From: Candidatus Limnocylindrales bacterium
Lineage (GTDB): Bacteria; Desulfobacterota; Binatia; UBA1149; CAITLU01
NCBI GenBank assembly: GCA_035626395.1
Contig: DASPNR010000007.1
Coordinates: forward strand, 293,012 to 357,011
DNA: 64,000 bases
Direction of reading: 5' to 3'
The position numbers were made by a program, and so were the translations under genes. Below, piece by piece: positions 1,950 to 13,936 of this stretch. The notes under the pieces are model-generated. The model worked only from the letters and a program-made list of their open reading frames with translations. It did no database searches and was not told the DNA's origin. The number at the start of each line of letters is the position of its first letter. Position 1 is the stretch's first letter.

Positions 1950-3167
1950 TCACGCTTTCGCGCGACGCGCAGTGCGGCGGGCGGCGCGGCCGTGCGTCTT
2001 CGAGGCACGAGAAGCGGGCGACGTGCGAGACGTGGCGGACGCTCGCGTCGGACGAGGCGTGCGGCCGCGGCAGCGGCGCAGAAACCGCAGCGTTTCGAGC
2101 TCGTCGGGTGCCATCCCCGTACGCGGCCGCTTGACCGGCGCGATTGCCGGCACCTCGCCGTCGCCTTTGCCGTTGCCGGAGGCGGAGAGCTCTCCCGAAG
2201 CGAAGCGCTCCAGAACCAACGGGTGAATGTAGCACTTGCGGCAGACAGCGACGGTGTTGCCGAGCTTTTCGGCGACCTGCTCCACCGCACGCAGGACCAG
2301 CTTCTTCGCCGCGCGCTCGGTGCTGGCGCTCGGGCACTTGCGCAGCAGCGACATTGCCAGGACGGTGCCGGCCCAGGTGCGAAAGTCGCGCGCGGTGAAC
2401 TCGCCGCCGCTGATCTCTCGCAGATACTCGTTGACGTCGCCCGAATGGACGTCGTGGATGTTGCCGTCCTCGTCGTAATAGCCGAACAGGTCCTGACCCG
2501 GAATGTCCTGGCATTTGCGCACCACACGGGCCACGCGCGGATCCTCCACGGCGATGTCGTGGCGCTTGCCGCTCTTGCCGCGAAATTGGAACCGGATAGT
2601 CGAGGCCTTCACGGACGCGTGGCGGTTCTTCATCGTCGTCAGGCCATAGGAGTTGTTGGTGCGGGCATACTCCTCGTTGCCGATGCGGATGAACGTCAGG
2701 TCCATCAGGCGTATGACCGTGGCCAGCACGCGTTCCCGCTCCATTCCTCTGCCCGCGAGGTCGCGCGTGACGCGGCGGCGGATGGCCGGTAGCGCCTTGG
2801 CGAAATCCAGCATGCGGTCGTATTTGGTCGCGTCGCGCACCTGGCGCCAGCGTGGATGGTAGCGGTGCTGCTTGCGGCCGCGCGCGTCGCGGCCGGTGGC
2901 CTGGACGTGCCCGTTCTCGTCAGGGCAGATCCAGACGTCGGTCCATGCAGGTGGAATGGCGAGCGAGCGAATGCGCGCAAGGGTGCGGCCGTCGCGGACG
3001 GGCTTGCCGCTGCCGTTGACGTAGCGGAAGGTTTTGCCTGCCTTGACGCGGCGGATCCCCGGCCCATCGTCGCTGACGTAGCGAAGGCCCACTGCGCGCG
3101 CCGACTCGGGGGGCGGGGGAACGGCTCCCATGGTGTTGCCGCCATTGCGCATGCGATTCCGGAGCAC
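1950..3167 (-). CDS. DNA topoisomerase IB (bacterial poxvirus-like type IB topoisomerase)
   Basis: Motifs LRYVSDDGPGIRR, AIPPAWTDVWICP and HRYHPRWR are characteristic of bacterial TopIB. The true start is probably internal, at ATG 3152 or 3131. The long basic C-terminal tail is unverified. Confidence 0.75.
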   Translation of the reverse strand: MLRNRMRNGGNTMGAVPPPPESARAVGLRYVSDDGPGIRRVKAGKTFRYVNGSGKPVRDGRTLARIRSLAIPPAWTDVWICPDENGHVQATGRDARGRKQHRYHPRWRQVRDATKYDRMLDFAKALPAIRRRVTRDLAGRGMERERVLATVIRLMDLTFIRIGNEEYARTNNSYGLTTMKNRHASVKASTIRFQFRGKSGKRHDIAVEDPRVARVVRKCQDIPGQDLFGYYDEDGNIHDVHSGDVNEYLREISGGEFTARDFRTWAGTVLAMSLLRKCPSASTERAAKKLVLRAVEQVAEKLGNTVAVCRKCYIHPLVLERFASGELSASGNGKGDGEVPAIAPVKRPRTGMAPDELETLRFLRRCRGRTPRPTRASATSRTSPASRASKTHGRAARRTARRAKA

Positions 3168-3211: not shown

Positions 3212-3970
3212 ATGGAAGCGGCGAGGGTTGGGACCAGCGGATGGATCTACAAGAGCTGGGCGCAGACGTTCTACCCACCCGACGTCGGCAAGACCGGCCA
3301 CCTCGAGCACTACGCGCGCCGCTTCGACACCGTCGAGATCAATGCGAGCTTCTACCGCCTGCCGCCGGCCGAGACGGCGCGCGCGTGGTCGAAGAAGGTT
3401 CCGCGCGACTTCGTGTTCGCGCTCAAGGGCAGCCGCTTCATCACCCACATGAAGAAGCTGGCGGTGGATGGCAGGTCGATCGAGATCTTCTTCGAGCGTG
3501 CGCGAATGCTGGGCCGCAAGCTCGGGCCCATTCTGTGGCAGCTCCCGCCCCAGCTCGGTTACGACCCCGAGCGCCTCGAGCGGTTCCTGAAGACGGTCCC
3601 GCGACGCCATTCGCACGCCGTCGAGTTCCGCCATCCCTCCTGGTACGACCACGAGACGACGTTCGACATCCTGCGCGAGCGCCGCGCCGCTCACGTCTGC
3701 GTCAGCTCGCTCGGCATGGCGCGCAATCTTGCCGTGACGGCGGACTTCACCTACGTCCGCTTTCACGGGCTCGACGGCGGCGCAGCGCACGACTACACGC
3801 GTCGCGAGCTGCGGCCGTGGGCCGATCACTGCCGGCGCTGTCTGGAGACCGGCGTGGCCGTCTATGCGTACTTCAACAACGACGCCAACACGCGCGCGCC
3901 GAAGAATGCCGACACGTTCCGCGAAATGATCGGGGTCGTCACGCCGGCGGCGCGGGCAGCGTCACGGTGA
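3212..3970 (+). CDS. DUF72 family protein (YecE-like)
   Basis: WIYKSWAQTFYP...EINASFYRLP...LWQLPP is a canonical DUF72 signature. Confidence 0.8.
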   Translation: MEAARVGTSGWIYKSWAQTFYPPDVGKTGHLEHYARRFDTVEINASFYRLPPAETARAWSKKVPRDFVFALKGSRFITHMKKLAVDGRSIEIFFERARMLGRKLGPILWQLPPQLGYDPERLERFLKTVPRRHSHAVEFRHPSWYDHETTFDILRERRAAHVCVSSLGMARNLAVTADFTYVRFHGLDGGAAHDYTRRELRPWADHCRRCLETGVAVYAYFNNDANTRAPKNADTFREMIGVVTPAARAASR

Positions 3971-5636
3971 ACTCACTGCCCTGACCGATGCCGCCGCTGG
4001 CGGCCGCGACACTGCCGCCGTGCAGCTCCACCAGAGTCCGCACCAGCGTCAGCCCGATGCCGAGGCCGCCTTGCGATCGTTCCAGCGACCTGTCGCCCTG
4101 CGTGAAAAGGTCGAAGATCGTCGGCAGCAGCTCGGGGGCGATGCCGATGCCGGTGTCGCGAACGCGAATCCGGATCTGTCCAGCCTCCGCGGTGATGCCC
4201 AGGGTGATGATGCCGCCGTCATCGGTGTACTTGGCTGCGTTGTTGAGGAGGTTCGCCAGGACCTGCTCCAGGCGCGCGGCGTCGGCGTCGACGGGGAGGG
4301 GGCCTTCGGGCACCGTGACCTCGAGACGGTGGCGGCGCGAAGAGAGCAGCGGCGAGCAGGTTTCCACCGCCCGCGCCACGACCGTCTGGAGATCCACGCG
4401 CTGCTTTCGCAAGGCGATGGTGCCGCGCGTGATGCGGGCGACGTCGAGCAGATCGTCGACCAGGCGGGTCATGTGCTCGAGCTGCCGCACGACGATCGCG
4501 CTCGCGCGGCGGATATCCTCGTCCGCGTGGCCGGCGAGGGAGACGATCTCCATGGCGTTTCGCATCGGCGCCAGTGGATTGCGCAGCTCGTGCGCGAGCA
4601 TGGCCAGGAACTCGTCCTTGCGCCGATCGGCTTCGACCAGCGAGGCTTCGGCGCGCTTGCGCTGCAGGAACTGGCCGATCTGGCTGCCGATGGCCGAGAG
4701 CATGTTCAACACGTCGTCGTCGGTGGCGCGGACTTCGGGGCTGAAGAACTCGAGGGCGCCGCGTACGTCGGCGCCGAGCAGGATCGGAAACGCGAACGCG
4801 GCGTGCAGCCCGTCCGCGGTCGCGGCGGCGGCGCGCGGGAAGTTGTCGTCTCGCTGGATGTCCGCGGCCCATGCCGGTTGCCGAGAGGCCCACACGCGGC
4901 CGGGGAGACCTTTGCCGCGCGGCAGCACCAGCGCACGCGTCGCCGCCTCGAACTGCGGGATCTGCACGCCCGGCTGATGCCACACCTCCACGCAGCGCAT
5001 GACGGCGGCGCGATCGTCGACGATCCACAGGTCGCCGACACACCAATCCAGACAGTCGCACAGCGCCTCGATCACCCGCGGGGCGGCAGCCCTCAGCGTG
5101 TCGGCTTCGGCGAGGATGGCCGTCACCGCATGCTGCGCGGCGACGCGCCGCTCGGAGCGCTTGCGCTCGGTGACATCGCGCAGGATGGCCAGGTGCCGGT
5201 GCGGAAGGTAGTTGGCCGTGGCGCGAAACTCGATTTCGCACGTGCTTCCGTCCGGCCGCTGCAGGCGCAGCTCCCCGGCCAGCTCGCCGTCGCGCAGCAG
5301 GCCGCGCCACATGCGCGCAAATTGCTCGTCGCTGCCGAGCGCGCCCGACCCGGCACCGATGCGCTTGCCGAGGACGTCGGCAAGCGGGACGCCGTTCATC
5401 GCGCATGCGGCGGGGTTCGCGTCGACATAGCGGCCCTCGTCGTCGAGGATCACTACGCCGTCGAGCGCGCGGCGGAACAGCTCGGCGAAGTGACGATCGG
5501 TCGCTATTTCTCCAGCTCCTCGCGGATCGTGTACATGAGCTGGCGCGCGTCGATGATGAAGACGTCGAGGTTGCGCCGGTGGTTGGCGAAGATTCCCGAG
5601 GGGCCGCCGTTCATCACGACGAGCGGCTTGATCCAC
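3939..5636 (-). CDS. Sensor histidine kinase with PAS and GAF domains plus HisKA and HATPase_c
   Basis: HELRNPLAPM is the H-box, and DTGIGI...GGLGIGL are the G-boxes. PAS and GAF segments lie upstream of these. The ORF's first ATG overlaps the upstream gene by 133 nt, so the true start is probably an internal non-ATG codon. Confidence 0.8.
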   Translation of the reverse strand: MDQAARRDERRPLGNLRQPPAQPRRLHHRRAPAHVHDPRGAGEIATDRHFAELFRRALDGVVILDDEGRYVDANPAACAMNGVPLADVLGKRIGAGSGALGSDEQFARMWRGLLRDGELAGELRLQRPDGSTCEIEFRATANYLPHRHLAILRDVTERKRSERRVAAQHAVTAILAEADTLRAAAPRVIEALCDCLDWCVGDLWIVDDRAAVMRCVEVWHQPGVQIPQFEAATRALVLPRGKGLPGRVWASRQPAWAADIQRDDNFPRAAAATADGLHAAFAFPILLGADVRGALEFFSPEVRATDDDVLNMLSAIGSQIGQFLQRKRAEASLVEADRRKDEFLAMLAHELRNPLAPMRNAMEIVSLAGHADEDIRRASAIVVRQLEHMTRLVDDLLDVARITRGTIALRKQRVDLQTVVARAVETCSPLLSSRRHRLEVTVPEGPLPVDADAARLEQVLANLLNNAAKYTDDGGIITLGITAEAGQIRIRVRDTGIGIAPELLPTIFDLFTQGDRSLERSQGGLGIGLTLVRTLVELHGGSVAAASGGIGQGSEFTVTLPAPPA

Positions 5637-6463
5637 GCGGCTTCACGCAGCGAGTGCGCGACGTGATCGAACAGCTCGAGCACCGCCTCGCGTCCCGCCA
5701 GCGACGTCTCGTACTCGCGCCGCAGCGCCACCGTCAGGTGGAACATGACGTGCGCGACGCCCTGCGCATGGTAGAAGTGATCGTCGGTCTGCAGGAAGCC
5801 CACGTCCTCGCGCAGAAGATTGGCGTGCGCATCGCCGAGCATGTCGGTCCAGGTCTGGAAGAGGCGGATCAGCTCGACGTTGCGGCGATTGATCGGCTTG
5901 GACGTCGGCGCCGGCGTCGCGAGGCCCGCGACGTAGCGCCGCAGCGACTCGACGCCGTCGCGGAAGCGCGACTCCGCCGACGGGAACCAGAACTTGTGCT
6001 CGTCGTTGCGCAGCCGCGTCTCCGCATCGACCAGGTTCTGGTCGTATTCGCTCGCGGAGACCTTGGTCAGATGATCGCGAAAGACGCGCGTGCTCTCGCG
6101 AACCGCCTGGATGATGCCGAGCTGACGGTTGGCGTTGTTGTCCGCCATCAGCGCCGGTCCCCACAGGATGAAGTCGTTGGGCCGCCAGCCCGTGGTGCTG
6201 TCGAGCTCGTGCTGGACCAGAGCCGCTACCGTCGACGCGAATGCCTCGCCGCCCACCATCGGACGGTCGGCCGGGAACTCGTTGTGGACGTGGAACGGAA
6301 GACGGTTGTGGCTTATCTGCGTGAAGTGCAGGAACAGCGGGGTCACCAGGAAGAGGAGTATCAGGATCGCGCCGGCTGCGGACTGAAGCATGGTGGCGAA
6401 GCGTACTGTGTGGCCGCGGAGGGTCCAACCGCGGCGCTCAGGAGGCCGGAAAGTCGCGAGCAT
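5504..6463 (-). CDS. Conserved hypothetical protein with an N-terminal transmembrane anchor, possibly DUF2333-like
   Basis: Codon usage looks coding. It sits directly upstream of the PAS/GAF kinase and overlaps it. The start is either 6463 or 6391 (MLQSAAG...). The family assignment is from memory and uncertain. Confidence 0.55.
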   Translation of the reverse strand: MLATFRPPERRGWTLRGHTVRFATMLQSAAGAILILLFLVTPLFLHFTQISHNRLPFHVHNEFPADRPMVGGEAFASTVAALVQHELDSTTGWRPNDFILWGPALMADNNANRQLGIIQAVRESTRVFRDHLTKVSASEYDQNLVDAETRLRNDEHKFWFPSAESRFRDGVESLRRYVAGLATPAPTSKPINRRNVELIRLFQTWTDMLGDAHANLLREDVGFLQTDDHFYHAQGVAHVMFHLTVALRREYETSLAGREAVLELFDHVAHSLREAAWIKPLVVMNGGPSGIFANHRRNLDVFIIDARQLMYTIREELEK

Positions 6464-9400
6464 CCTGTCCCCGCGTCAGCCTCGCCAGCGTCGTCTCGAC
6501 CTGCGCCAGCTCGACCGGCTTCATCAGGTGGGCGTTGAACCCTGCGTCCGCGCTCTTTCGGCGGTCTTCCCCCTGGCCGTATCCGGTCACGGCAATGAGC
6601 GCGGTATCGGCGTGCTGGGGCTGCTTGCGCAGCCGTCGTGCGACCTCGTAGCCGTCCATGCCGGGAAGCCCGATATCGAGCAGGATCGCATCGGGATCGA
6701 AGCGTGCGGCGATGTGAAGGGCCGCCTCGCCGTCGTGTGCGGTGCGGACCTGATGGCCGGCCAGTCGAAGCAGGACCGCGAGGCTTTCGGCGGCATCGAC
6801 GTTGTCGTCGACGATCAGCACCCGCCGCGCGGCGGCCGCCCTTTCGGCCTCGGTGCGCGGCATGGGAGCCATCGCGCCGTCCTCGCGCCGGATGGGAAGG
6901 CGCAGCTCGAAGACGCTGCCACGTCCGATGCCTTCGCTGCCGGCCTGGATCTGGCCGCCGTGCAGCTCGACCAGCCGCCGCACCAGAGTCAGCCCGATTC
7001 CGAGGCCGCCGCCGGAGCCGGTGGAGCGGTGCACCTGCATGAAGGGCTCGAACACGCGCGAGAGCATCTCGGGAGCCAGTCCCGTTCCATCGTCCCTCAC
7101 GCGCACCACGGCTGCGGGAACGGCGGCGCCGTCAGCCTGCTCGCGCGACAGCGTTACCCAGATGTTGCCGCCCTCGTGCGTGAACTTCGAGGAGTTGCCC
7201 AGCAGATTGGCCAGGATCTGCTCGAGGCGCATGGGATCGCCGTCGACGAACGTCGCCTGCCCGTCCAACTCCAGATGCAGGTGCTGCTCGTGGCCTTCGA
7301 GTGCGGGACGCAGCGCCTCGCACGTCCGATGCACGACCTGCGCGAGGTCGAGCGGCTCCAGCCGCAGATGGATCCGGCCGCTGGTGATGCGAGAGACGTC
7401 CAGGAGATCGTCGATCATGCGCGCCATGTGCGCGATCTGGCGCTCCATCATGGCGCGCGTGCGGACTGTCGTATCCGGATCGTCGACCATTTGAAGCACT
7501 TGCGAGCCGCTGCTCATGGCGGCAAGGGGATTGCGAAGCTCGTGCGCGAGCATGGCCAGGAATTCGGTCTGACGGCGGTTGGCCTGCGCGAGCTGCTCGA
7601 CCCTGGTACGCAGCGACTCCTCCAGGGCCTTGCGGTGCGTGATGTCCTTCATCGAGAGGACGATGGAGAAGTCTCCGTCGTCTCGCGTCAGCCGCTGCGC
7701 GTTCAGGAGCAGGGTGCGGCGCACGCCGCCGTCGGCGGTGAACGAGTGCTCGAAGTCCTCCATGGGCGTGCCGGTGTAGCGAACCGCATCGAGGGCGCGT
7801 CGCAGGTCGGCCGTGTTCCACCGCCCGTCGCAGATGCGCGGTAGCGGGCTTTGCTCGACGTCGGCGGCCGACAGTCCCATCGCGTCATAGAACCTGTCAC
7901 TCGCCTTCTGCACGCGCAGGTCCGCATCCAGCACGAGCAGCGGCTCGGCGACCGCCGCCACGATCGCTTCGGCGTACCGCCGCGCGCGCGCTAGCGTGTC
8001 GATGTCCACGAGCAGCAGCACCACCCCGTCCAGACGGTTGTCGAGCGTGCGATACGGCCATATGCGCAGCGAGTGCCAACGGCCCTGCTTGTCCTGGACG
8101 TCCATCTCCTGAAACGTCATCGAATCGATGACCTCGGTCACCAGGGGTTCCAGGTCGTCGATGCTGAGGCCGAGCTTCAAATCGGAGATGGAGCGGCCGA
8201 CGTCGCTGCTGCGCACGTTCAGGACGCGCTCTGCTGCCGGCGTCACCCGGCGGATGCGCAGGTTGGCGCCCAGCATGATAATCGGCATGCGGACGCTGGC
8301 CAGGAGGTTGACGAGGTCGTTGTTGGTCTGGCTCAGCTCGTGATTCCGCCGGCTGAGCTCGTCGTTGAGCGTGGCCAGTTCCTCGTTGCTGGACTCGATT
8401 TCCTCCTTGGAAGTCTGCAGCTCCTCGTTGATGCTCTGCAGCTCTTCATTGGCCGACTGCACCTCCTCGTTCGCTGCCTGCAGTTCCTCGTTGGCCGCTT
8501 CCTGCTGCTCCACCACCGATTGCAGATACTCGCGAGTCGCCGCCAGCTCGCTGAGCAGCCGGCGTGTCTCGTCGTTGTCCTCCGGTGCCATCGTGGCCAT
8601 CGGCACGGCCGGCTGCGCGTCCTCCGTCGGGCTGGCGGAGAACGTCACGAGATAGTGATCGCCGCTGCCGGTGCTGCGGACAGGGATGACCTCGACGTGC
8701 GCTTCGAGCGGATCCTCATCGGTGCCGAGCGCGATGCCGGACGTCCGCACGGGTACGCCATCGCGCCGAGCGCGGTCGCACGCGTTGCGTACCGGCGCCA
8801 CGAGCGCCTCCGGCAGCATCTTCAGCAGGTTCAGCGATGCGGTGCCCGACGCTGGAGCGATGAACCGGCTGGTGTCGCCGCGGAACTGCAGTATCTCGAG
8901 GTCAGCGGTCACCAGCACGCCCGGCGGTGCGTAGCGCGCGAGCAGCAGGCGGTCCGCCTCTTTGTGCGGATCGCTGGACCTTGCCGCGGCCGGACGTTCG
9001 GAGCGTGCCGGCCAGTACGCCGCCAGGCCGCTACGGCGCGTTCCCGGCGCCGATATGGTGGGGGAGGAGCGCGCGCCGGCTTTCTTGCCGTAGAAGTTGA
9101 ACGTCTGGCTGGCGCTGTCGAACAAGTGCGCGGCCCCGACGATCGCTTCCGAAGGGCCCAGCCATAGGATGCCGCCGGGCTTGAGCGCGTAGTGCAGCGT
9201 CGGCATCAGCCTCTCCTGCAGGCTGCGTTCGAGGTAGATCATCATGTTGCGGCAGCTGACGAGGTCCATGCGCGAGAACGGCGGCTCTGCAAGCCCGTTG
9301 TGCGTCGCGAACACGCACATCTCCCGCGTGGCGCGGTTGACGCGGTAGCAGTCGCCCATGCGAACGAAGAACTGACGCAGCCGCTCTGGAGAAACGTCCT

Positions 9401-10535
9401 TCTCGATGCTCCTGGAGTAGACGCCGCTGCGAGCCTTCTCGATGCCTGCCGGATTGAGATCGGTGGCGAATATCTGCACCGGCAGGGGCCGTCCTCTCTG
9501 CTGTGCGAACTCCTGGCAGATGATCGCGATCGAATACGCCTCCTCTCCGGTCGAGCAACCCAGAACCCAGATCCGCAGCGGCTCCAGCCGGCTGCGCTCC
9601 GACACCAGTGCCGGAAGAATTTCGTCCCGCAGCGCTTCGAAAGCTTCGGGGTTACGGAAGAAGCTGGTGACGTTGATCAGGATGTCGTGGAAAAGGTTCT
9701 CCACTTCCTCCTGGCTGGAGCGGAGCAGCTCGAGATACTGGCCGAGGTCGTGCAGCTTGTGCAGCACCATGCGCCGGGTCACGCGGCGGAACAGGGTGCT
9801 GTGCTTGTAGTGCGAGAAGTCGGCTCCGAGGCTGTCGCTGATGACGTCGAGGATTTCGCGCAGCTCGTTCCCGTCGAGGCGCTCGCCGGCTTCGAATCTG
9901 TCCCGGTCGACGTACGGGTGGCGCGCCATGCGTCGCAGCTCGCCCGCGATCTGCTCGGGAGGCAGCACCAGATCGACACAGCCGGCCGCAATGGCCGAGC
10001 GCGGCATGCTTACCTGCTGCGCGGTTGAATCCTGCGCGAAGGCGAAGCCGCCGGCGCCCTTGATTTCCTCGAGACCGACGGTGCCGTCGTCGCCCAGGCC
10101 CGAGAGCAGGACGCCGATTGCGCGGCGCCCCTGCTCGGAGGCCAGAGCCAGCAAGAACGTGTCGATCGGCTGCGGCCGCCCGTGCGTGTCGTCGCGCGGC
10201 GTCAGACGGAGCCTGCCACCGGCAATGACCATGCTCGTGTTGGGAGGGATGACGTAGACGTGATCGGGAGCGACCTCCTGATCATCCTCGACCTTGACCA
10301 CCGGCATGTCGGTGAGGCGGGCGAAGACCTCGTCGAGCTGGCTCGGATAGTTGGGCGCAAGGTGCGTGACGAACACGAAGGCCATGCCGGTGTCGGGCGG
10401 CAGGGCCCGTAGCATGGCCGAAAACGCTTCGATTCCACCGGCCGAAGCGCCCACGCCCACCACCGGGAACGGCAGCGCTGGCTCGGGCAGATCGAAAGCT
10501 ATTTCTTCTTTTCGGGCCCCGGTGTCATCGGCCAT
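6438..10535 (-). CDS. Hybrid chemotaxis-type sensor kinase with domain order CheB methylesterase - CheR methyltransferase - PAS - coiled coil - HisKA - HATPase_c - REC
   Basis: GVGASAGG is the CheB motif. VLGCSTGEEAYS marks the CheR SAM-methyltransferase fold. A heptad coiled coil (EELQ...) follows, then HELRNPL, then a DD...D...K receiver domain. Confidence 0.9.
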   Translation of the reverse strand: MADDTGARKEEIAFDLPEPALPFPVVGVGASAGGIEAFSAMLRALPPDTGMAFVFVTHLAPNYPSQLDEVFARLTDMPVVKVEDDQEVAPDHVYVIPPNTSMVIAGGRLRLTPRDDTHGRPQPIDTFLLALASEQGRRAIGVLLSGLGDDGTVGLEEIKGAGGFAFAQDSTAQQVSMPRSAIAAGCVDLVLPPEQIAGELRRMARHPYVDRDRFEAGERLDGNELREILDVISDSLGADFSHYKHSTLFRRVTRRMVLHKLHDLGQYLELLRSSQEEVENLFHDILINVTSFFRNPEAFEALRDEILPALVSERSRLEPLRIWVLGCSTGEEAYSIAIICQEFAQQRGRPLPVQIFATDLNPAGIEKARSGVYSRSIEKDVSPERLRQFFVRMGDCYRVNRATREMCVFATHNGLAEPPFSRMDLVSCRNMMIYLERSLQERLMPTLHYALKPGGILWLGPSEAIVGAAHLFDSASQTFNFYGKKAGARSSPTISAPGTRRSGLAAYWPARSERPAAARSSDPHKEADRLLLARYAPPGVLVTADLEILQFRGDTSRFIAPASGTASLNLLKMLPEALVAPVRNACDRARRDGVPVRTSGIALGTDEDPLEAHVEVIPVRSTGSGDHYLVTFSASPTEDAQPAVPMATMAPEDNDETRRLLSELAATREYLQSVVEQQEAANEELQAANEEVQSANEELQSINEELQTSKEEIESSNEELATLNDELSRRNHELSQTNNDLVNLLASVRMPIIMLGANLRIRRVTPAAERVLNVRSSDVGRSISDLKLGLSIDDLEPLVTEVIDSMTFQEMDVQDKQGRWHSLRIWPYRTLDNRLDGVVLLLVDIDTLARARRYAEAIVAAVAEPLLVLDADLRVQKASDRFYDAMGLSAADVEQSPLPRICDGRWNTADLRRALDAVRYTGTPMEDFEHSFTADGGVRRTLLLNAQRLTRDDGDFSIVLSMKDITHRKALEESLRTRVEQLAQANRRQTEFLAMLAHELRNPLAAMSSGSQVLQMVDDPDTTVRTRAMMERQIAHMARMIDDLLDVSRITSGRIHLRLEPLDLAQVVHRTCEALRPALEGHEQHLHLELDGQATFVDGDPMRLEQILANLLGNSSKFTHEGGNIWVTLSREQADGAAVPAAVVRVRDDGTGLAPEMLSRVFEPFMQVHRSTGSGGGLGIGLTLVRRLVELHGGQIQAGSEGIGRGSVFELRLPIRREDGAMAPMPRTEAERAAAARRVLIVDDNVDAAESLAVLLRLAGHQVRTAHDGEAALHIAARFDPDAILLDIGLPGMDGYEVARRLRKQPQHADTALIAVTGYGQGEDRRKSADAGFNAHLMKPVELAQVETTLARLTRGQDARDFPAS

Positions 10536-10662: not shown

Positions 10663-11052
10663 CTAACGATCGAACACCTTCTCTTCGGAAACGCCATGCG
10701 CGCCGGTCACGTCCTGGCGCGATTCGTGTGGGTCATCGTGCTGGCTGCGCCGGCTGGCCTTGGCGGACGGGTTGTCGTCATCCAGCTGCGCGTGCGCTTC
10801 CCGGTCGCGAGCGAAGCCGGCGTTCTCGCTGGAGCCGCCGACCTGCTGCGTGGAGCCGCCGGCGATCTCACCGGCCTGCTGAGCCGGGCTGTCGGTGGAG
10901 TGGCGTGCGTTCTGCTTGCTCGGATCGGCGCCGACCCCGCCGCCACCGAGACCGGTCTCCGGTGTCTCGCCGTACTCGTACTCCTGTCCCGAGCGGTGGC
11001 CGGTTTTTGAGGGATCGGGTCGGTCGGTGGGCGGCTGTCGTTGCTCGCTCAT
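10663..11052 (-). CDS. Hydrophilic, acidic, predicted disordered protein of 129 aa (possibly stress- or desiccation-related)
   Basis: An internal ATG is preceded by AAGGAGA 6 nt upstream. The sequence is MSEQRQPPTDRPDPSKTGH...EEKVFDR. The 5' part of the listed ORF upstream of this ATG is rejected. Confidence 0.55.
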   Translation of the reverse strand: MSEQRQPPTDRPDPSKTGHRSGQEYEYGETPETGLGGGGVGADPSKQNARHSTDSPAQQAGEIAGGSTQQVGGSSENAGFARDREAHAQLDDDNPSAKASRRSQHDDPHESRQDVTGAHGVSEEKVFDR

Positions 11053-11371
11053 GAGGTCTCCTTGCGCATTCGCGCCGAAGGGGCGCGTCGCGTCTGAAAC
11101 GGCGACTGCCTCCGGCGCCGGATTATTCGTAACGTCCCGTTTGCCGCGAACATTCGCGGGACGGGCTGCCTGACCCGTTCGAGGCGGGTTTCGCACGCAT
11201 CGAGTCTGGGGCGGCCTCTTTGGAGGGACGCCGCCGCATTGCGCGACCGCCTTCGGGTCAAACCGTCTTGCTGAGGTCGCCCTATGCGGCGTAGCCATGG
11301 AGAGAACAGTGATTCCTGACGACCTGCAGCGTTTCCGCGCTGCGCGTGCGCTGAACGAAGGAGAGACCCAG

Positions 11372-13936
11372 ATGCTGACGTTCCGAAGCGCCACGATGAG
11401 AGCCGCCGCGTTGGCGCTCGTCTGCCTGTTCCTTCCCCTGCCGGCCCAGGCACTGACCGACGCCGAGACCGAGTGCCGACTGGTCATCGCCAAGAGCATG
11501 GCCACATACACGCGGGCCGCGCTTCGCGTCACCAAGAAATGCCACCGCCGGCGCAGCGCCGGGCGTATCCCCCTCAGCATCGATTGCAGCGATCTGTCGC
11601 AGGCGGACACGCGCAACAAGCTGCCCGAGTACCGAACGCTCGTGCTCGACCGCATCGGCGGAGCAGGCAGCCCCTGCTCGCAGACGCCCGGGCTCCTGTC
11701 GCGCTACCCGAGTTGTCCCGCGCCTGCCCAGAGCGCCGATGACGGCGGCGCCTCGACGGGAATCGACTCCTTCACCGAGGTGGCGCAGTGCCTGATGGCG
11801 CTGACCGACGCCGAGGTCGGTGATTTGTCCGAGGAGACGGCCGGCGATCCGGCAAGCCCGCTCAGCGAAGCGGCGCTGCAGTGTCAGACGGCGATCTCCG
11901 AAGGCGTCAAGCGCATCGTCAAGCGCTACATGCACGAGCGGCGTCTTTGTCAGCGCAATCTCGACCAGGCGGGCGGCGGTCTCGACTACGGCTGCGAGGG
12001 CGCCGACCCGAACGGCCGCATCGCGCAGGCGCGCACCGCGGTCAGCAACTCCATCGCCACCCACTGTACGCTGTCGCAGGCCGAGCTGGCCACGCTCGAC
12101 TCGTGCGGCGATACCACGGCCGAGCTGCAGCAGTGCGTCGTCGCCGCCGCCGACGAAACCGGCGCCGATCTGATCGAGAACGCCTACGAGCTGCCCGGCG
12201 CAACGACGACGACCACGGAGGCGCCGCCGACCACGACGCTGGCGCCCACGACGACCACGACGATCTCCGGCCCGACGACCACGCTCGGCGCCACCACCAC
12301 GACGATCACCGGCCCCACCACCACCGTGGGACCGACGACGACGACGCTGACGGGCCCGACCACCACCGTCGGGCCGACCACGACGACCCTGACGGGCCCG
12401 ACCACCACGACGATGCCGGAGGCGCAATGCGCCGATACGTTCCCGCTGTGCAACGGCGCGTGCGGCGACGGCACGTTCTGCGGCGTCGACGGGACGGCGT
12501 GCGTCTGCGAGGCGGCCACCGGCGCCTGCGCGCCGGCAACGATCGAACGCGTCTTCCACGCGAAGTACGAGGGCAGCCAGACCAGCCTCAGCACCGGCTG
12601 GACCGGCACGGCGCACGACGTCGACATCCCCGGCGGCAGCCGCGACGTCGTCGACGTCGTCTGCGACCAGGAGTGCGAGAACTGCCAGGTCTCGCTCAAC
12701 GTGCAGGAAGGGCAGACCGTGTCGAACTGTCGCTGCGCTTCCTCGCCGCAGACCACCTGCACCGTCATCAACGGGCCCGATCCCGACAACTGCGGCGTCG
12801 TCGACTCCTCGTGCAACTGCTACTTCGGCTCCCCGCTGGCCATCTCCGCCGGCGGAACGCCGGTGTGCGTGACCAACGAGATCATCGAGGACTACAGCGG
12901 GACGATGAACCTGCGTACCGGCGAATGGTACGAGCGCACCAAGCTCGCCTCGGTGGTCCATCTCGGCGCCGACGTGTTCAATCCCTGCCCGCTGTGCGCA
13001 GGCGACGAAACGGCCAATGACGGCGTTCGCGGCGGCACCTGCGAGGGCGGCCTGCAGGACGGCATGAGCTGCGACGTCAACGGCGACCACCTCACGTTCG
13101 GACCGACCAGCTTCGACTGCCCGCCGCCGAGCCTCAGCAACATCAGCGGCAGCGGGCTGCTGCTCGACCTGAAGTTCTCGACGGGCCCGCAAGCGCTGGC
13201 GGCGAACCTCCCGTGCGATACGCCGGACGATGCGCTGTGCGCGTGCCGCGTCTGCTCGGGCAACAACAGGGTCGGCTGCGCCACCAACGCCGACTGCGAG
13301 GAATTCGACGCAGGAACCTGCACGGCCGGAGGTGGCGCGGGCGTCCAGCCCAACGAGTGCACGGATTTCGAATGCGGCGAGGACGATCGCTGCACGCAGG
13401 GCCCCATCGACAACTTCTGTGACGGCGTGACCCATCCCGACGGCCGCGGTTTCCTCAGCTGCGTGAGCGACCTGGACTGCCAGGCCCTGGGAGCGGGGCA
13501 GTGCACGGTCCAGGATCTGCGCCGCTGCTACAACTATCCGATCGAGACCACCGGCGACCCGGACATCGAGGAGCCGGTCAAGGCATCGATCTTCTGCATC
13601 CCGCCCACGACGAGCCCGGCCGTGAACTCCTCCGGCGGCCTGCCCGGCCCCGGTGTGTTCCGTCTGGACTTCGACGTGGACGTCCGATGCCAGAACGATC
13701 CGACCAAAGCCTACCAGTTCCCGAGCGGCGACAACTGCAACGAGTCCACGACCACGACGATCCAGGGCGGTACGACGCTGCCGCCGCTGACCACGACGCT
13801 GCCGGATGTGCCGACGACGCTGCCGGTGGCGGACTGCGCCCAGGCCACGCCGCCGCTGTGCGTGGGCGTCTGCGGGCCGGGAGAGGCGTGCGTGCAGGGC
13901 CTGTCGGGCTGTCAGTGCGGGGGGATCATGCCCTAA
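11372..13936 (+). CDS. Large secreted cysteine-rich protein with a poly-Thr linker; paralog A
   Basis: RBS GGAGAG precedes the ATG. The signal peptide is MLTFRSATMRAAALALVCLFLPLPAQA. A roughly 70-aa T/P/G linker is encoded by tandem repeats. More than 60 Cys residues follow, with motifs TGWTGTAHD, CNCYFG, NPCPLC, ANDGxRGG, FCIPPT and GLPGPG. Confidence 0.85.
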   Translation: MLTFRSATMRAAALALVCLFLPLPAQALTDAETECRLVIAKSMATYTRAALRVTKKCHRRRSAGRIPLSIDCSDLSQADTRNKLPEYRTLVLDRIGGAGSPCSQTPGLLSRYPSCPAPAQSADDGGASTGIDSFTEVAQCLMALTDAEVGDLSEETAGDPASPLSEAALQCQTAISEGVKRIVKRYMHERRLCQRNLDQAGGGLDYGCEGADPNGRIAQARTAVSNSIATHCTLSQAELATLDSCGDTTAELQQCVVAAADETGADLIENAYELPGATTTTTEAPPTTTLAPTTTTTISGPTTTLGATTTTITGPTTTVGPTTTTLTGPTTTVGPTTTTLTGPTTTTMPEAQCADTFPLCNGACGDGTFCGVDGTACVCEAATGACAPATIERVFHAKYEGSQTSLSTGWTGTAHDVDIPGGSRDVVDVVCDQECENCQVSLNVQEGQTVSNCRCASSPQTTCTVINGPDPDNCGVVDSSCNCYFGSPLAISAGGTPVCVTNEIIEDYSGTMNLRTGEWYERTKLASVVHLGADVFNPCPLCAGDETANDGVRGGTCEGGLQDGMSCDVNGDHLTFGPTSFDCPPPSLSNISGSGLLLDLKFSTGPQALAANLPCDTPDDALCACRVCSGNNRVGCATNADCEEFDAGTCTAGGGAGVQPNECTDFECGEDDRCTQGPIDNFCDGVTHPDGRGFLSCVSDLDCQALGAGQCTVQDLRRCYNYPIETTGDPDIEEPVKASIFCIPPTTSPAVNSSGGLPGPGVFRLDFDVDVRCQNDPTKAYQFPSGDNCNESTTTTIQGGTTLPPLTTTLPDVPTTLPVADCAQATPPLCVGVCGPGEACVQGLSGCQCGGIMP
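12205..12420. repeat. Tandem repeats of about 39 nt encoding the (GPTTTVGPTTTTLT)n linker of Cys-rich paralog A
   Basis: Repeating ggcccgaccaccaccgtgggaccgacgacgacgacgctgacg units are visible. Confidence 0.8.

What the first reader, a model, noticed from the sequence alone, without database searches (positions are those of the whole stretch)
3939..10535. Signalling block of a PAS/GAF histidine kinase, a DUF2333-like membrane protein and a 1365-aa CheB-CheR-PAS-HK-REC hybrid
Three co-directional genes on the minus strand overlap or abut one another (6438-6463 and 5504-5636). The largest gene fuses chemoreceptor-modifying enzymes (methylesterase plus methyltransferase) to a PAS sensor, a leucine-zipper coiled coil, a histidine kinase and a receiver. 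This arrangement signals without a separate MCP or CheA. The long 133-nt overlap between the DUF2333-like ORF and the first ATG of the PAS/GAF kinase suggests an unannotated non-ATG start, or a programmed overlap.
Basis: partly seen in the sequence, partly recalled or inferred. Interest (0 to 1): 0.5.

Follow-up and report, generated by a model that had tools for sequence, protein, structure and literature searches.

The report
CheB/CheR-fusion sensor kinase gene cluster
The region encodes an ordinary member of a large, already catalogued but never characterised family of sensor kinases fused to the chemotaxis methylation enzymes CheB and CheR, followed by an unrelated membrane protein and a second kinase; the reported gene overlaps come from picking the longest reading frames.

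Summary
The three minus-strand ORFs are real, and the domain reading of the 1365-aa protein is correct. Its order is CheB, CheR, a PAS-fold domain that Pfam misses, a coiled coil, PAS_10, PAS_4, HisKA, HATPase and REC. The CheB Ser-His-Asp triad and the CheR SAM and catalytic residues are present and conserved.

This is a known kind. The exact protein is already in NCBI, JGI names its homologues "CheB/CheR fusion protein", and there are thousands of homologues. I found no functional study.

Both overlaps are artefacts. DUF2333 starts at ATG 6391 (295 aa, the same length as its homologues). The 133-nt upstream extension of the kinase ORF is non-coding in the kinase frame (GC3 0.33). Codon 5636 is GTG, not ATG. 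A sister genome shows that an ~85-nt deletion removed the ancestral ATG. NCBI already starts this kinase at ATA 5507, which overlaps the DUF2333 stop codon.

The three-gene block recurs only in that one sister lineage. About 30 other DUF2333 loci lack CheB/CheR or kinase neighbours.

The most interesting point is that the "leucine zipper" is the best conserved part of the protein. It consists of N-E-E-L-Q-S-A heptads whose near-invariant Glu-Glu pairs match the core of the chemoreceptor methylation-site motif. The coiled coil may therefore be the enzymes' built-in substrate. This is inferred, not shown.

The parts
6438..10535 (-). Gene for the 1365-aa CheB/CheR-fusion hybrid histidine kinase (ATG 10535, stop 6438-6440).
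   Evidence: ORF and translation. Pfam domains. The identical protein is in NCBI, JGI and ENA.
9936..10460 (-). CheB methylesterase domain (residues 26-200). It has no N-terminal receiver. The catalytic triad is Ser31, His58 and Asp150.
   Evidence: Pfam PF01339, E 2.3e-49. The alignment to Salmonella CheB 1a2o places S164/H190/D286 on S31/H58/D150. These residues are conserved in 159-164 of 167 family members.
9102..9866 (-). CheR methyltransferase (CheR_N 224-274 and the SAM-binding domain 288-478). Key features are Arg294, the motif GCSTGEE at 326-332, Asp359 and Tyr434.
   Evidence: Pfam PF03705 and PF01739. Alignments to 1af7, 1bc5 and 5ftw. Conservation across the family.
8628..8972 (-). 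PAS-fold domain that Pfam does not annotate (residues ~522-636). It is flanked by poorly conserved linkers at 480-520 and 637-659.
   Evidence: No Pfam hit even at E 10. AlphaFold2 model with pLDDT 84. All top Foldseek PDB matches are PAS domains.
8301..8558 (-). Coiled coil (residues 660-745) made of N-E-E-L-Q-S-A heptads. Near-invariant Glu-Glu pairs lie at 683/684, 690/691, 697/698, 704/705, 711/712 and 718/719, with Asp-Glu at 725/726. This is the candidate built-in methyl-accepting segment.
   Evidence: Column composition in 120 homologues. It is the most conserved block of the protein (0.89). The motif is enriched about 120-fold over the rest of the protein. The shuffle test gives P about 5e-5.
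7629..8312 (-). PAS_10 (residues 742-846) and PAS_4 (862-969) sensor domains.
   Evidence: Pfam, E 3.4e-22 and 6.4e-14.
6888..7571 (-). Histidine kinase core: HisKA (989-1053, H-box His998) and HATPase_c (1099-1216).
   Evidence: Pfam. Motif positions.
6492..6821 (-). C-terminal receiver domain (1239-1348). It has the acidic pair at 1243-1244, the phospho-acceptor Asp1287, and conserved Thr and Lys. No HPt domain is present.
   Evidence: Pfam PF00072. Motif positions.
5504..6391 (-). Gene for the 295-aa DUF2333 family protein. It has one N-terminal transmembrane helix and an all-alpha domain. The most likely start is ATG 6391, not 6463.
3939..5507 (-). Gene for the PAS-GAF histidine kinase (522 aa if started at ATA 5507). 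The ATA overlaps the DUF2333 TAG stop by 2 nt. The alternative start is GTG 5453 (504 aa).
   Evidence: Pfam. NCBI HYB98420.1 begins MATDRHF. Comparison with the sister genome. Codon-position GC. Candidate start codons.
5508..5636 (-). Upstream extension of the longest kinase ORF, lying inside the DUF2333 gene. It is not coding in the kinase frame.
   Evidence: GC3 is 0.33 in the kinase frame and 0.95 in the DUF2333 frame. It would translate to an Arg/Pro-rich peptide with no homologue. The 565-aa product is not in any public collection.
10663..11052 (-). Upstream co-directional gene for a 129-aa hydrophilic, low-complexity protein. It is conserved (72% identity) at the same position in the sister genome and may be co-transcribed.
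   Evidence: Gene calls. tblastn. Sequence. No Pfam hit.

Best explanation
The region holds a lineage-specific row of genes, not a dedicated three-part machine.

The large gene:
- It encodes a soluble, orphan hybrid histidine kinase of the widespread CheB/CheR-fusion family.
- Shown: its methylesterase and methyltransferase look catalytically competent. They are joined by poorly conserved linkers to a PAS-fold domain and to an 86-residue coiled coil. The coiled coil leads into two PAS domains, the kinase core and a receiver.
- Inferred mechanism: the fused CheR methylates, and the fused CheB demethylates, the near-invariant Glu-Glu pairs on the protein's own coiled coil, or on that of its dimer partner. 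Neutralising these roughly 14 negative charges per helix would change coiled-coil packing. That would set the gain of the PAS-to-kinase signal, as methylation does in chemoreceptors. No MCP, CheW or CheA would be needed.
- The C-terminal receiver may feed kinase activity back onto the receiver-less CheB domain. This is speculative.

The downstream genes:
- The DUF2333 membrane protein is a neighbour of unknown function, with no evidence of a functional link to the kinases.
- The second gene downstream encodes a paralogous PAS-GAF kinase. It lost its ancestral ATG and intergenic spacer through an ~85-nt deletion. It is now most likely translated from ATA 5507, coupled to termination of DUF2333.
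For: Identity of the large protein:
- Pfam domains are all above gathering scores.
- The identical protein is in NCBI as "chemotaxis protein CheB", and homologues of ~50% identity are named "two-component system CheB/CheR fusion protein" by JGI. 7989 hits had E<=1e-20.
- The coiled-coil plus PAS_10 module is found in 17158 representative clusters.

Catalytic competence:
- S31/H58/D150 align to the CheB triad.
- The CheR Arg98 equivalent and the SAM motif are present. All are conserved in 154-166 of 167 relatives, except position 331 of the motif (E in 133, Q in 31).

The coiled coil as substrate:
- The Glu-Glu pairs are invariant in 117-120 of 120 homologues, as are the surface positions e and f.
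- This block is the best conserved in the protein: 0.89 against 0.72-0.74 for the enzyme domains.
- The core motif [EQ][EQ]xx[ASTG][ASTG] occurs 5 times in heptad register, against 0.47 in shuffles (P about 5e-5). Nine of the ten positions of the published chemoreceptor consensus are matched 5 times. The consensus is quoted in PMC6829392.
- With Asn at position a and Leu at d, the second Glu falls at heptad position c, as in chemoreceptors.

Independence from chemotaxis:
- No che or MCP genes lie within 10 kb here or at three homologue loci.
- The chimeric CheB-CheR gene of Phaeobacter inhibens is not co-regulated with the che regulon.

Gene starts:
-.

Synteny:
-.
Against: - No experiment on any member of the family was found, so methylation of the coiled coil is pure inference.
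- The full 10-residue chemoreceptor consensus is never matched, because position 1 is Gln/Glu rather than a small residue.
- Gln almost never replaces Glu at the candidate sites. Gln at some methylation sites is common in chemoreceptors.
- The segment is a single long helix, presumably a two-stranded coiled coil. It is not the four-helix bundle on which CheR and CheB are known to act.
- Glu-rich heptads with small residues also occur in coiled coils that have nothing to do with methylation.
- The rest of the genome could encode MCPs.
- ATA is a very weak initiation codon in the bacteria where this has been measured, so the kinase may start at GTG 5453 or may be decaying.
Confidence: 0.55

Rival explanations
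1. The fused CheB/CheR pair acts in trans on separate methyl-accepting chemotaxis proteins encoded elsewhere in the genome. The PAS/kinase/receiver part only regulates, or is regulated by, this accessory adaptation activity. The coiled coil is then just a conserved signalling helix.
For: - The enzyme domains are close enough to canonical CheB and CheR to align over their full lengths.
- Genomes such as Geobacter, R. centenum and P. inhibens carry both fusions and full chemotaxis systems.
- The full 10-residue methylation consensus is not matched in the coiled coil.
Against: - No MCP, CheA or CheW gene or motif was found within the window or near three homologues.
- The P. inhibens fusion gene is not co-regulated with the che genes.
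- This reading does not explain why the surface positions of the coiled coil are more conserved than the enzymes.
Confidence: 0.25
2. The three genes form a dedicated signalling operon. The membrane-anchored DUF2333 protein would act as sensor or anchor for the two soluble kinases.
For: - The genes are co-directional and tightly spaced.
- The kinase start touches the DUF2333 stop codon.
- The same order is found in a sister genome.
- The two kinase cores are 48% identical.
Against: - Of 33 DUF2333 loci fetched from elsewhere (15 genomic including the sister, 16 metagenomic, and L007 and L008), only the sister lineage has CheB/CheR or kinase neighbours.
- Three CheB/CheR-fusion homologues have no DUF2333 neighbour.
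- The sister genome also shares the flanking DUF72 and topoisomerase IB genes. The shared order therefore reflects close relatedness rather than selection for a module.
Confidence: 0.1
3. The PAS-GAF kinase starts at GTG 5453, as JGI and ENA gene callers assume. It would then lack the N-terminal cap helix of its PAS domain. Alternatively it is a gene on its way to decay after the deletion of its start.
For: - GTG 5453 is the first canonical start codon after the DUF2333 stop.
- Two independent gene calls use it.
- ATA is a poor initiator (general knowledge).
- The kinase is much more diverged from its sister copy (47-53% identity) than the hybrid (48-71% by domain, 64% overall) or DUF2333 (85%).
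Against: - Residues between ATA and GTG 5453 (ATDRHFAELFRRALDG) are homologous to the sister protein, with synonymous changes and an in-frame 6-nt indel.
- GC3 there is 0.78, which is coding-like.
- The Pfam PAS models start upstream of codon 62.
- A GAGGAG sequence lies 8 nt upstream of ATA.
- The ORF and all kinase motifs are intact.
Confidence: 0.2
4. The 133-nt overlap is real. Either the kinase initiates at GTG 5636 inside DUF2333, or a programmed frameshift fuses DUF2333 to the kinase.
For: - GTG 5636 is the only canonical in-frame start upstream of the whole PAS domain.
- The kinase frame is -1 relative to DUF2333.
Against: - GC3 is 0.33 in the kinase frame across the overlap.
- The 44 extra residues are Arg/Pro-rich with no homologue.
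- The 565-aa product is absent from all collections.
- The sister genome has separate genes with a 46-nt spacer.
- There is no X XXY YYZ slippery heptamer at GAG AAA TAG.
Confidence: 0.03

Closest known systems
CheB/CheR fusion proteins (JGI product name [quoted passage not shown]). From memory this corresponds to KEGG orthologue K13924, cheBR.
   Same: It has the same domain order (CheB, CheR_N, CheR, coiled coil, PAS_10, further PAS domains, then an output). It is ~50% identical over 97-98% of its length to more than 100 listed homologues from Thermoanaerobaculia, Burkholderiales, Vicinamibacteria, Prosthecobacter and others.
   Different: Nothing architectural differs. This copy is simply one with a HisKA-HATPase-REC output. 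Another member (L028) ends in GGDEF. The family has a name but no characterised mechanism in the literature I could search.
Canonical chemoreceptor adaptation system (MCP with CheR and CheB, and CheA-to-CheB feedback)
   Same: - The two enzymes are the same and have intact active sites.
- The candidate substrate helix carries Glu-Glu pairs every 7 residues, followed by small residues, with the second Glu at heptad position c.
- A kinase and a receiver are present that could close a feedback loop.
- Flexible tethers are present, in place of the chemoreceptor's C-terminal pentapeptide tether.
   Different: - Everything is on one polypeptide.
- There is no MCPsignal domain, CheW or CheA.
- The kinase is a class I HisKA kinase.
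- The CheB domain lacks its own N-terminal receiver.
- The helix is probably a two-stranded coiled coil rather than a four-helix bundle.
- Asn occupies every a position.
- The full 10-residue consensus is matched at only 9 of 10 positions.
CheR-TPR fusion proteins of alternative-function chemosensory pathways (PMC3447774)
   Same: A CheR fused to an extra module and used outside flagellar chemotaxis.
   Different: Those proteins sit in che gene clusters with MCP and CheA and lack CheB, PAS and kinase domains. This gene is an orphan.
Hybrid sensor kinases such as TorS, LuxQ, BarA and ArcB
   Same: The HisKA-HATPase-REC core gives sub-threshold NCBIfam matches (E 1e-50 to 1e-60).
   Different: All scores are far below the curated equivalog cut-offs (for example 204 against 676 bits for TorS). 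There is no HPt domain and no transmembrane or periplasmic sensor.
DUF2333 (Pfam PF10095)
   Same: The middle protein scores 89.7 bits against a cut-off of 22 and is named "DUF2333 family protein" by NCBI.
   Different: Only profile positions 48-186 of 330 are covered by the best stretch. The subfamily (mostly Binatia and relatives, 50-85% identity) is unusually well conserved, with about 90 invariant residues in 32 sequences. Its function is unknown.

Membership tests
CheB methylesterase (PF01339) | Sequence match to the catalytic domain above the curated threshold | tested here: met
   167.9 bits against a cut-off of 24, covering the full profile 1-174. PDB CheB chains match at E 2e-25 to 3e-15.
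CheB methylesterase (PF01339) | Ser-His-Asp catalytic triad (Salmonella S164/H190/D286) | tested here: met
   S31, H58 and D150 align to the triad of 1a2o. They are conserved in 159, 161 and 164 of 167 relatives.
CheB methylesterase (PF01339) | N-terminal receiver domain controlling the esterase, as in canonical CheB | tested here: not met
   The domain starts at residue 26. The only receiver is at 1239-1348, at the far C-terminus.
CheR methyltransferase (PF03705 + PF01739) | Both CheR domains above threshold, with the SAM-binding motif and catalytic Arg/Tyr | tested here: met
   47.1 and 168.6 bits. GCSTGEE, Arg294 (= R98), Asp359 and Tyr434 align to 1af7.
CheR methyltransferase (PF03705 + PF01739) | Glutamate O-methyltransferase activity on a receptor substrate | not testable with these tools
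   Needs a biochemical assay.
CheB/CheR fusion protein family | CheB, CheR, coiled coil and PAS_10 on one chain, with full-length homology to named members | tested here: met
   ~50% identity over 97-98% of the length to proteins named "CheB/CheR fusion protein". 47 of the 148 top representatives of the coiled-coil plus PAS_10 module carry both enzymes. One apparent exception that I checked proved to be a fragment.
Methyl-accepting chemotaxis protein | MCPsignal domain with the conserved hairpin | tested here: not met
   No MCPsignal hit in Pfam for any of the three proteins. No hairpin motif in the six-frame translation of the window.
Methyl-accepting chemotaxis protein | Methylation-site consensus [ASTG][ASTG]xx[EQ][EQ]xx[ASTG][ASTG] with the second Glx at heptad position c (PMC6829392) | tested here: inconclusive
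   The full consensus matches 0 times. Nine of ten positions match 5 times, and the 6-residue core matches 5 times in register. The register fits if Asn is at a and Leu at d.
Hybrid histidine kinase | H-box His, ATPase domain and a receiver with phospho-acceptor Asp | tested here: met
   HisKA, HATPase_c and Response_reg are above threshold. His998 and Asp1287 are present.
Hybrid histidine kinase | HPt domain or a partner response regulator nearby | tested here: not met
   No HPt or Response_reg gene within 10 kb on either side.
DUF2333 (PF10095) | Match above the gathering score | tested here: met
   89.7 bits against a cut-off of 22, with partial profile coverage. 1827 homologues.
Programmed overlap / frameshift site | Coding signal in both frames across the overlap, and a slippery sequence | tested here: not met
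   GC3 is 0.33 in the kinase frame and 0.95 in the DUF2333 frame. No slippery heptamer at the junction.

The most novel reading that the evidence does not exclude
The near-invariant N-E-E-L-Q-S-A heptad coiled coil is a built-in methyl-accepting segment. CheB/CheR-fusion proteins would then be self-adapting one-polypeptide sensors that bring chemoreceptor-style methylation memory to ordinary two-component (and, in other members, c-di-GMP) signalling, with no MCP, CheW or CheA. The family has at least 17000 representative clusters.
Probability: 0.4. Interest if true: 0.7.

Novelty: new member of a known kind. Interest (0 to 1): 0.33.

Why it matters
As a locus it matters little. The proteins are already deposited and auto-annotated, the overlaps are artefacts, and the gene order is not conserved.

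The family is worth attention. It is very large, spans many phyla and has no published mechanism that I could find. The sequence evidence gathered here turns "what do the fused CheB and CheR act on?" into a direct experiment. One would look for methyl esters on six or seven defined Glu-Glu pairs of the protein's own coiled coil.

If confirmed, methylation-based sensory adaptation would not be restricted to chemoreceptor arrays.

Tried and rejected
Literature:
- Nine full-text searches found only passing mentions of CheB-CheR chimeras and no functional study. One search was wasted on a prefix match.
- Alexander and Zhulin 2007 is not held. I took the consensus from PMC6829392 instead.

Structure and homology of the coiled-coil module:
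- A PDB sequence search with the coiled coil plus PAS_10 found nothing significant.
- I tested whether the module ever occurs without CheB/CheR. 81 of 148 representatives lack the enzymes, but the one I could inspect is a frameshifted fragment at a contig edge. The test is inconclusive.

DUF2333 function:

Other checks:
- Promoter and terminator scans gave nothing above shuffle expectation.
- Rfam and tRNA scans found nothing near the locus.
- Two exact-protein look-ups to annotate 20-42 kb failed. That part of the window was checked only by motif scan.

Rejected readings:
- Dual coding in the 133-nt overlap.
- A frameshift fusion of DUF2333 to the kinase.
- DUF2333 as a conserved partner of the kinases.

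Full report
**Observation**

The window is GC-rich (about 0.64-0.71 in 1-kb windows across the first 16 kb). The start of the third ORF is GTG, not ATG.

Pfam confirms the domain reading, with every domain above its gathering score.
- The large protein has CheB_methylest 26-200, CheR_N 224-274, CheR 288-478, PAS_10 742-846, PAS_4 862-969, HisKA 989-1053, HATPase_c 1099-1216 and Response_reg 1239-1348.
- The middle protein has DUF2333.
- The third protein has PAS, GAF, HisKA and HATPase_c.

NCBIfam gives only sub-threshold matches to generic hybrid kinases, CheB and CheR.

**Provenance and family**

The exact 1365-aa protein is already public. It lies on 0.55-0.69 Mb metagenomic contigs (JGI 3300021061, ENA) and is in NCBI as [quoted passage not shown].

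Of the 8000 candidates that were scored, 7989 had E<=1e-20. The best 120 are ~50% identical over 97-98% of the length and share the architecture. JGI names them [quoted passage not shown]. The coiled-coil plus PAS_10 module alone hits 17158 representative clusters at E<=1e-3.

The architecture is therefore a known, catalogued kind. In the literature I could search it appears only in passing:
- R. centenum RC1_3878;
- cheBR fusions counted in Geobacter;
- a chimeric CheB-CheR gene of Phaeobacter inhibens that, unlike all che and most MCP genes, does not respond to CtrA-phosphorelay knockouts.

I found no functional study.

The alignment to Salmonella CheB (1a2o) places Ser164, His190 and Asp286 on Ser31, His58 and Asp150. 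The alignment to CheR (1af7, 1bc5, 5ftw) places the catalytic Arg98 on Arg294. It also conserves the SAM-binding GxSTGEE motif, the FA(S/T)D Asp and the NxMIY Tyr.

In 167 full-length relatives these residues are kept in 154-166 sequences, apart from the first Glu of the motif (E 133, Q 31). The enzymes look active. The CheB domain lacks the N-terminal receiver of canonical CheB.

**Anatomy beyond Pfam**

Residues ~522-636 have no Pfam match even at E 10. They fold as a PAS domain in an AlphaFold2 model (pLDDT 84), and all top Foldseek PDB matches are PAS domains. This domain is flanked by poorly conserved linkers at 480-520 and 637-659 (0.50-0.53 majority frequency).

There are at least nine heptads with Leu/Val/Ile at one core position and Asn at the other. 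The consensus is N-E-E-L-Q-S-A.

This is the best conserved stretch of the whole protein. Its mean majority frequency is 0.89, against 0.74 for CheB and 0.72 for CheR. Solvent-exposed positions are also conserved. The Glu-Glu pairs at 683/4, 690/1, 697/8, 704/5, 711/2 and 718/9 are E in 117-120 of 120 homologues. The Gln/Glu and Ser/Thr that follow are almost as constant. An ordinary linker coiled coil conserves only its core positions, so this surface is probably recognised by something.

**Link to methylation**

The published chemoreceptor methylation-site consensus is [ASTG]-[ASTG]-x-x-[EQ]-[EQ]-x-x-[ASTG]-[ASTG]. The modified residue is the second Glx, at heptad position c (PMC6829392).

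- The core [EQ][EQ]xx[ASTG][ASTG] occurs 5 times in heptad register in this coiled coil. Composition-preserving shuffles of the segment give a mean of 0.47 (P about 5e-5).
- Across 120 homologues the core motif is about 120 times denser in the coiled coil than elsewhere in the proteins.
- Nine of the ten consensus positions are matched 5 times. The full consensus is never matched, because position 1 is Gln/Glu.
- With Asn at a and Leu at d, the second Glu falls at c, as in chemoreceptors.
- Neither DUF2333 nor the second kinase carries the motif.

**Most likely mechanism (inferred, not shown)**

The tethered CheR and CheB add and remove methyl groups on the protein's own coiled coil, or on that of its dimer partner. 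This would neutralise up to about 14 carboxylates per helix and so tune how the PAS domains drive the kinase.

The poorly conserved linkers would play the part of the chemoreceptor's flexible C-terminal tether. The C-terminal receiver could feed kinase activity back onto the receiver-less CheB. This feedback cannot be general, because another family member ends in GGDEF.

Evidence against this mechanism:
- the imperfect consensus match;
- the near absence of Gln at the candidate sites;
- a probable two-stranded rather than four-helix geometry;
- the complete lack of experimental data.

The main rival is action in trans on MCPs encoded elsewhere. A 64-kb window cannot exclude this. No che or MCP gene lies within 10 kb here or at three homologue loci, and no MCP or CheA motif is in the window.

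**The overlaps**

*DUF2333.* 120 listed homologues are almost all 293-298 aa. All gene callers start at ATG 6391. The sister genome starts at the equivalent ATG. The 26-nt overlap with the hybrid gene therefore disappears and a 46-nt gap remains.

*Kinase.*
- The stretch 5508-5636 has GC3 0.33 in the kinase frame and 0.95 in the DUF2333 frame, against 0.85-0.90 for the real genes. It would encode an Arg/Pro-rich peptide.
- The 565-aa product is in no collection. There is no dual coding.
- In the sister genome (GCA_035626675.1, L005) the kinase has its own ATG 46 nt after the DUF2333 stop and begins MAGSHDPQQSRNSATDFAALFDRASDGVVILDD.
- In the window the homologous residues ATD(RH)FAELFRRALDGVVILDD run right up to the DUF2333 TAG. 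An ~85-nt deletion has therefore removed the spacer, the ATG and about 12 codons.
- The segment 5454-5507 still looks coding. GC3 is 0.78, the changes relative to the sister are mostly synonymous, and there is an in-frame 6-nt indel.
- The candidate starts are ATA 5507, CTG 5480 and GTG 5453. ATA 5507 overlaps the TAG by 2 nt and has GAGGAG 8 nt upstream.
- NCBI's record HYB98420.1 (522 aa, MATDRHF...) already uses the ATA. JGI and ENA use GTG 5453, which clips the PAS N-terminal cap.

I favour ATA with translational coupling (about 0.6-0.7).

**Is it a signalling block?**

The order is 129-aa protein, hybrid kinase, DUF2333, PAS-GAF kinase, then convergent DUF72 and topoisomerase IB. It recurs only in the one sister lineage (L005, L010, L029). 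Identity there ranges from about 47% (the PAS-GAF kinase) to 85% (DUF2333), and the flanking housekeeping genes are shared too.

Fourteen other genomic loci, sixteen metagenomic loci and two further DUF2333 loci (50-71% identity) have no CheB, CheR or kinase gene within 6-8 kb. Three hybrid-kinase homologues have no DUF2333 neighbour. One of them has a PAS-GAF-HK-REC gene three genes downstream.

The block is therefore a lineage-specific juxtaposition. The two kinase cores are 48% identical with near-identical H-boxes, so cross-talk is conceivable but untested.

DUF2333 itself is a highly conserved protein with one transmembrane helix and an all-alpha domain. Its fold matches are only generic, and its function stays unknown.

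**Verdict**

The genes and domains are right. The overlaps and the "ATG" are not.
- The locus is an ordinary new member of a known but uncharacterised family.
- The one feature that deserves follow-up is the ultra-conserved Glu-Glu heptad coiled coil as a candidate built-in methyl-accepting segment.

Noticed in passing
whole window; L005/L010: Taxonomic labels conflict. The window's proteins are filed in NCBI under "Candidatus Limnocylindrales" (Chloroflexota). The syntenic sister genome (47-85% protein identity across the shared genes, same gene order over >15 kb) is labelled "Candidatus Binatia", and most DUF2333 relatives come from Binataceae. One label, or the binning of one contig, is probably wrong.
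   Followed up: partly
window 10663-11052 (-): A 129-aa hydrophilic, Gly/Ser/Asp/Gln-rich, probably disordered protein lies directly upstream of the hybrid kinase. It is 72% identical at the same position in the sister genome, has no Pfam hit, and is annotated as hypothetical (HYB98423.1).
   Followed up: partly
window 11297-13936 (+): A large ORF (854-879 aa) is divergent from the kinase cluster and has no Pfam family at all, even at E 10.
   Followed up: partly
window 3939-3970: The 3' end of the PAS-GAF kinase gene and the convergent DUF72 gene (3212-3970, +) overlap by 32 nt. The same convergent overlap is seen in the sister genome.
   Followed up: no
window 1950-3152 (-): A bacterial type IB topoisomerase gene (Top1B_N_bact + Topoisom_I) lies downstream of the cluster. 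This enzyme is uncommon in bacteria.
   Followed up: no
window 6392-6437 versus L005 6619-6658: The spacer between the hybrid-kinase stop and the DUF2333 start is similar at the nucleotide level in the two genomes (ggctggaccc...cacagtac). This could be a regulatory element or just recent common ancestry.
   Followed up: no
L005 11959-15387: The sister genome carries an extra 1142-aa gene with an HZS_alpha (hydrazine synthase alpha-like) domain, inserted after the topoisomerase region. It is absent from the window.
   Followed up: no
L028 1-2472: A family member has the coiled coil and PAS_10 followed by PAS and GGDEF instead of a kinase. Its reading frame breaks inside the PAS-like domain at the contig edge, which may be an assembly frameshift. 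This shows that the CheB/CheR input module is combined with different outputs.
   Followed up: partly
A2 (alignment of DUF2333 relatives of window 5504-6391): About 90 invariant residues in 32 sequences of 64-85% identity from several phyla, many of them His, Asp, Glu, Arg, Asn and Trp. This suggests an enzyme or a specific ligand site in a family with no known function.
   Followed up: partly
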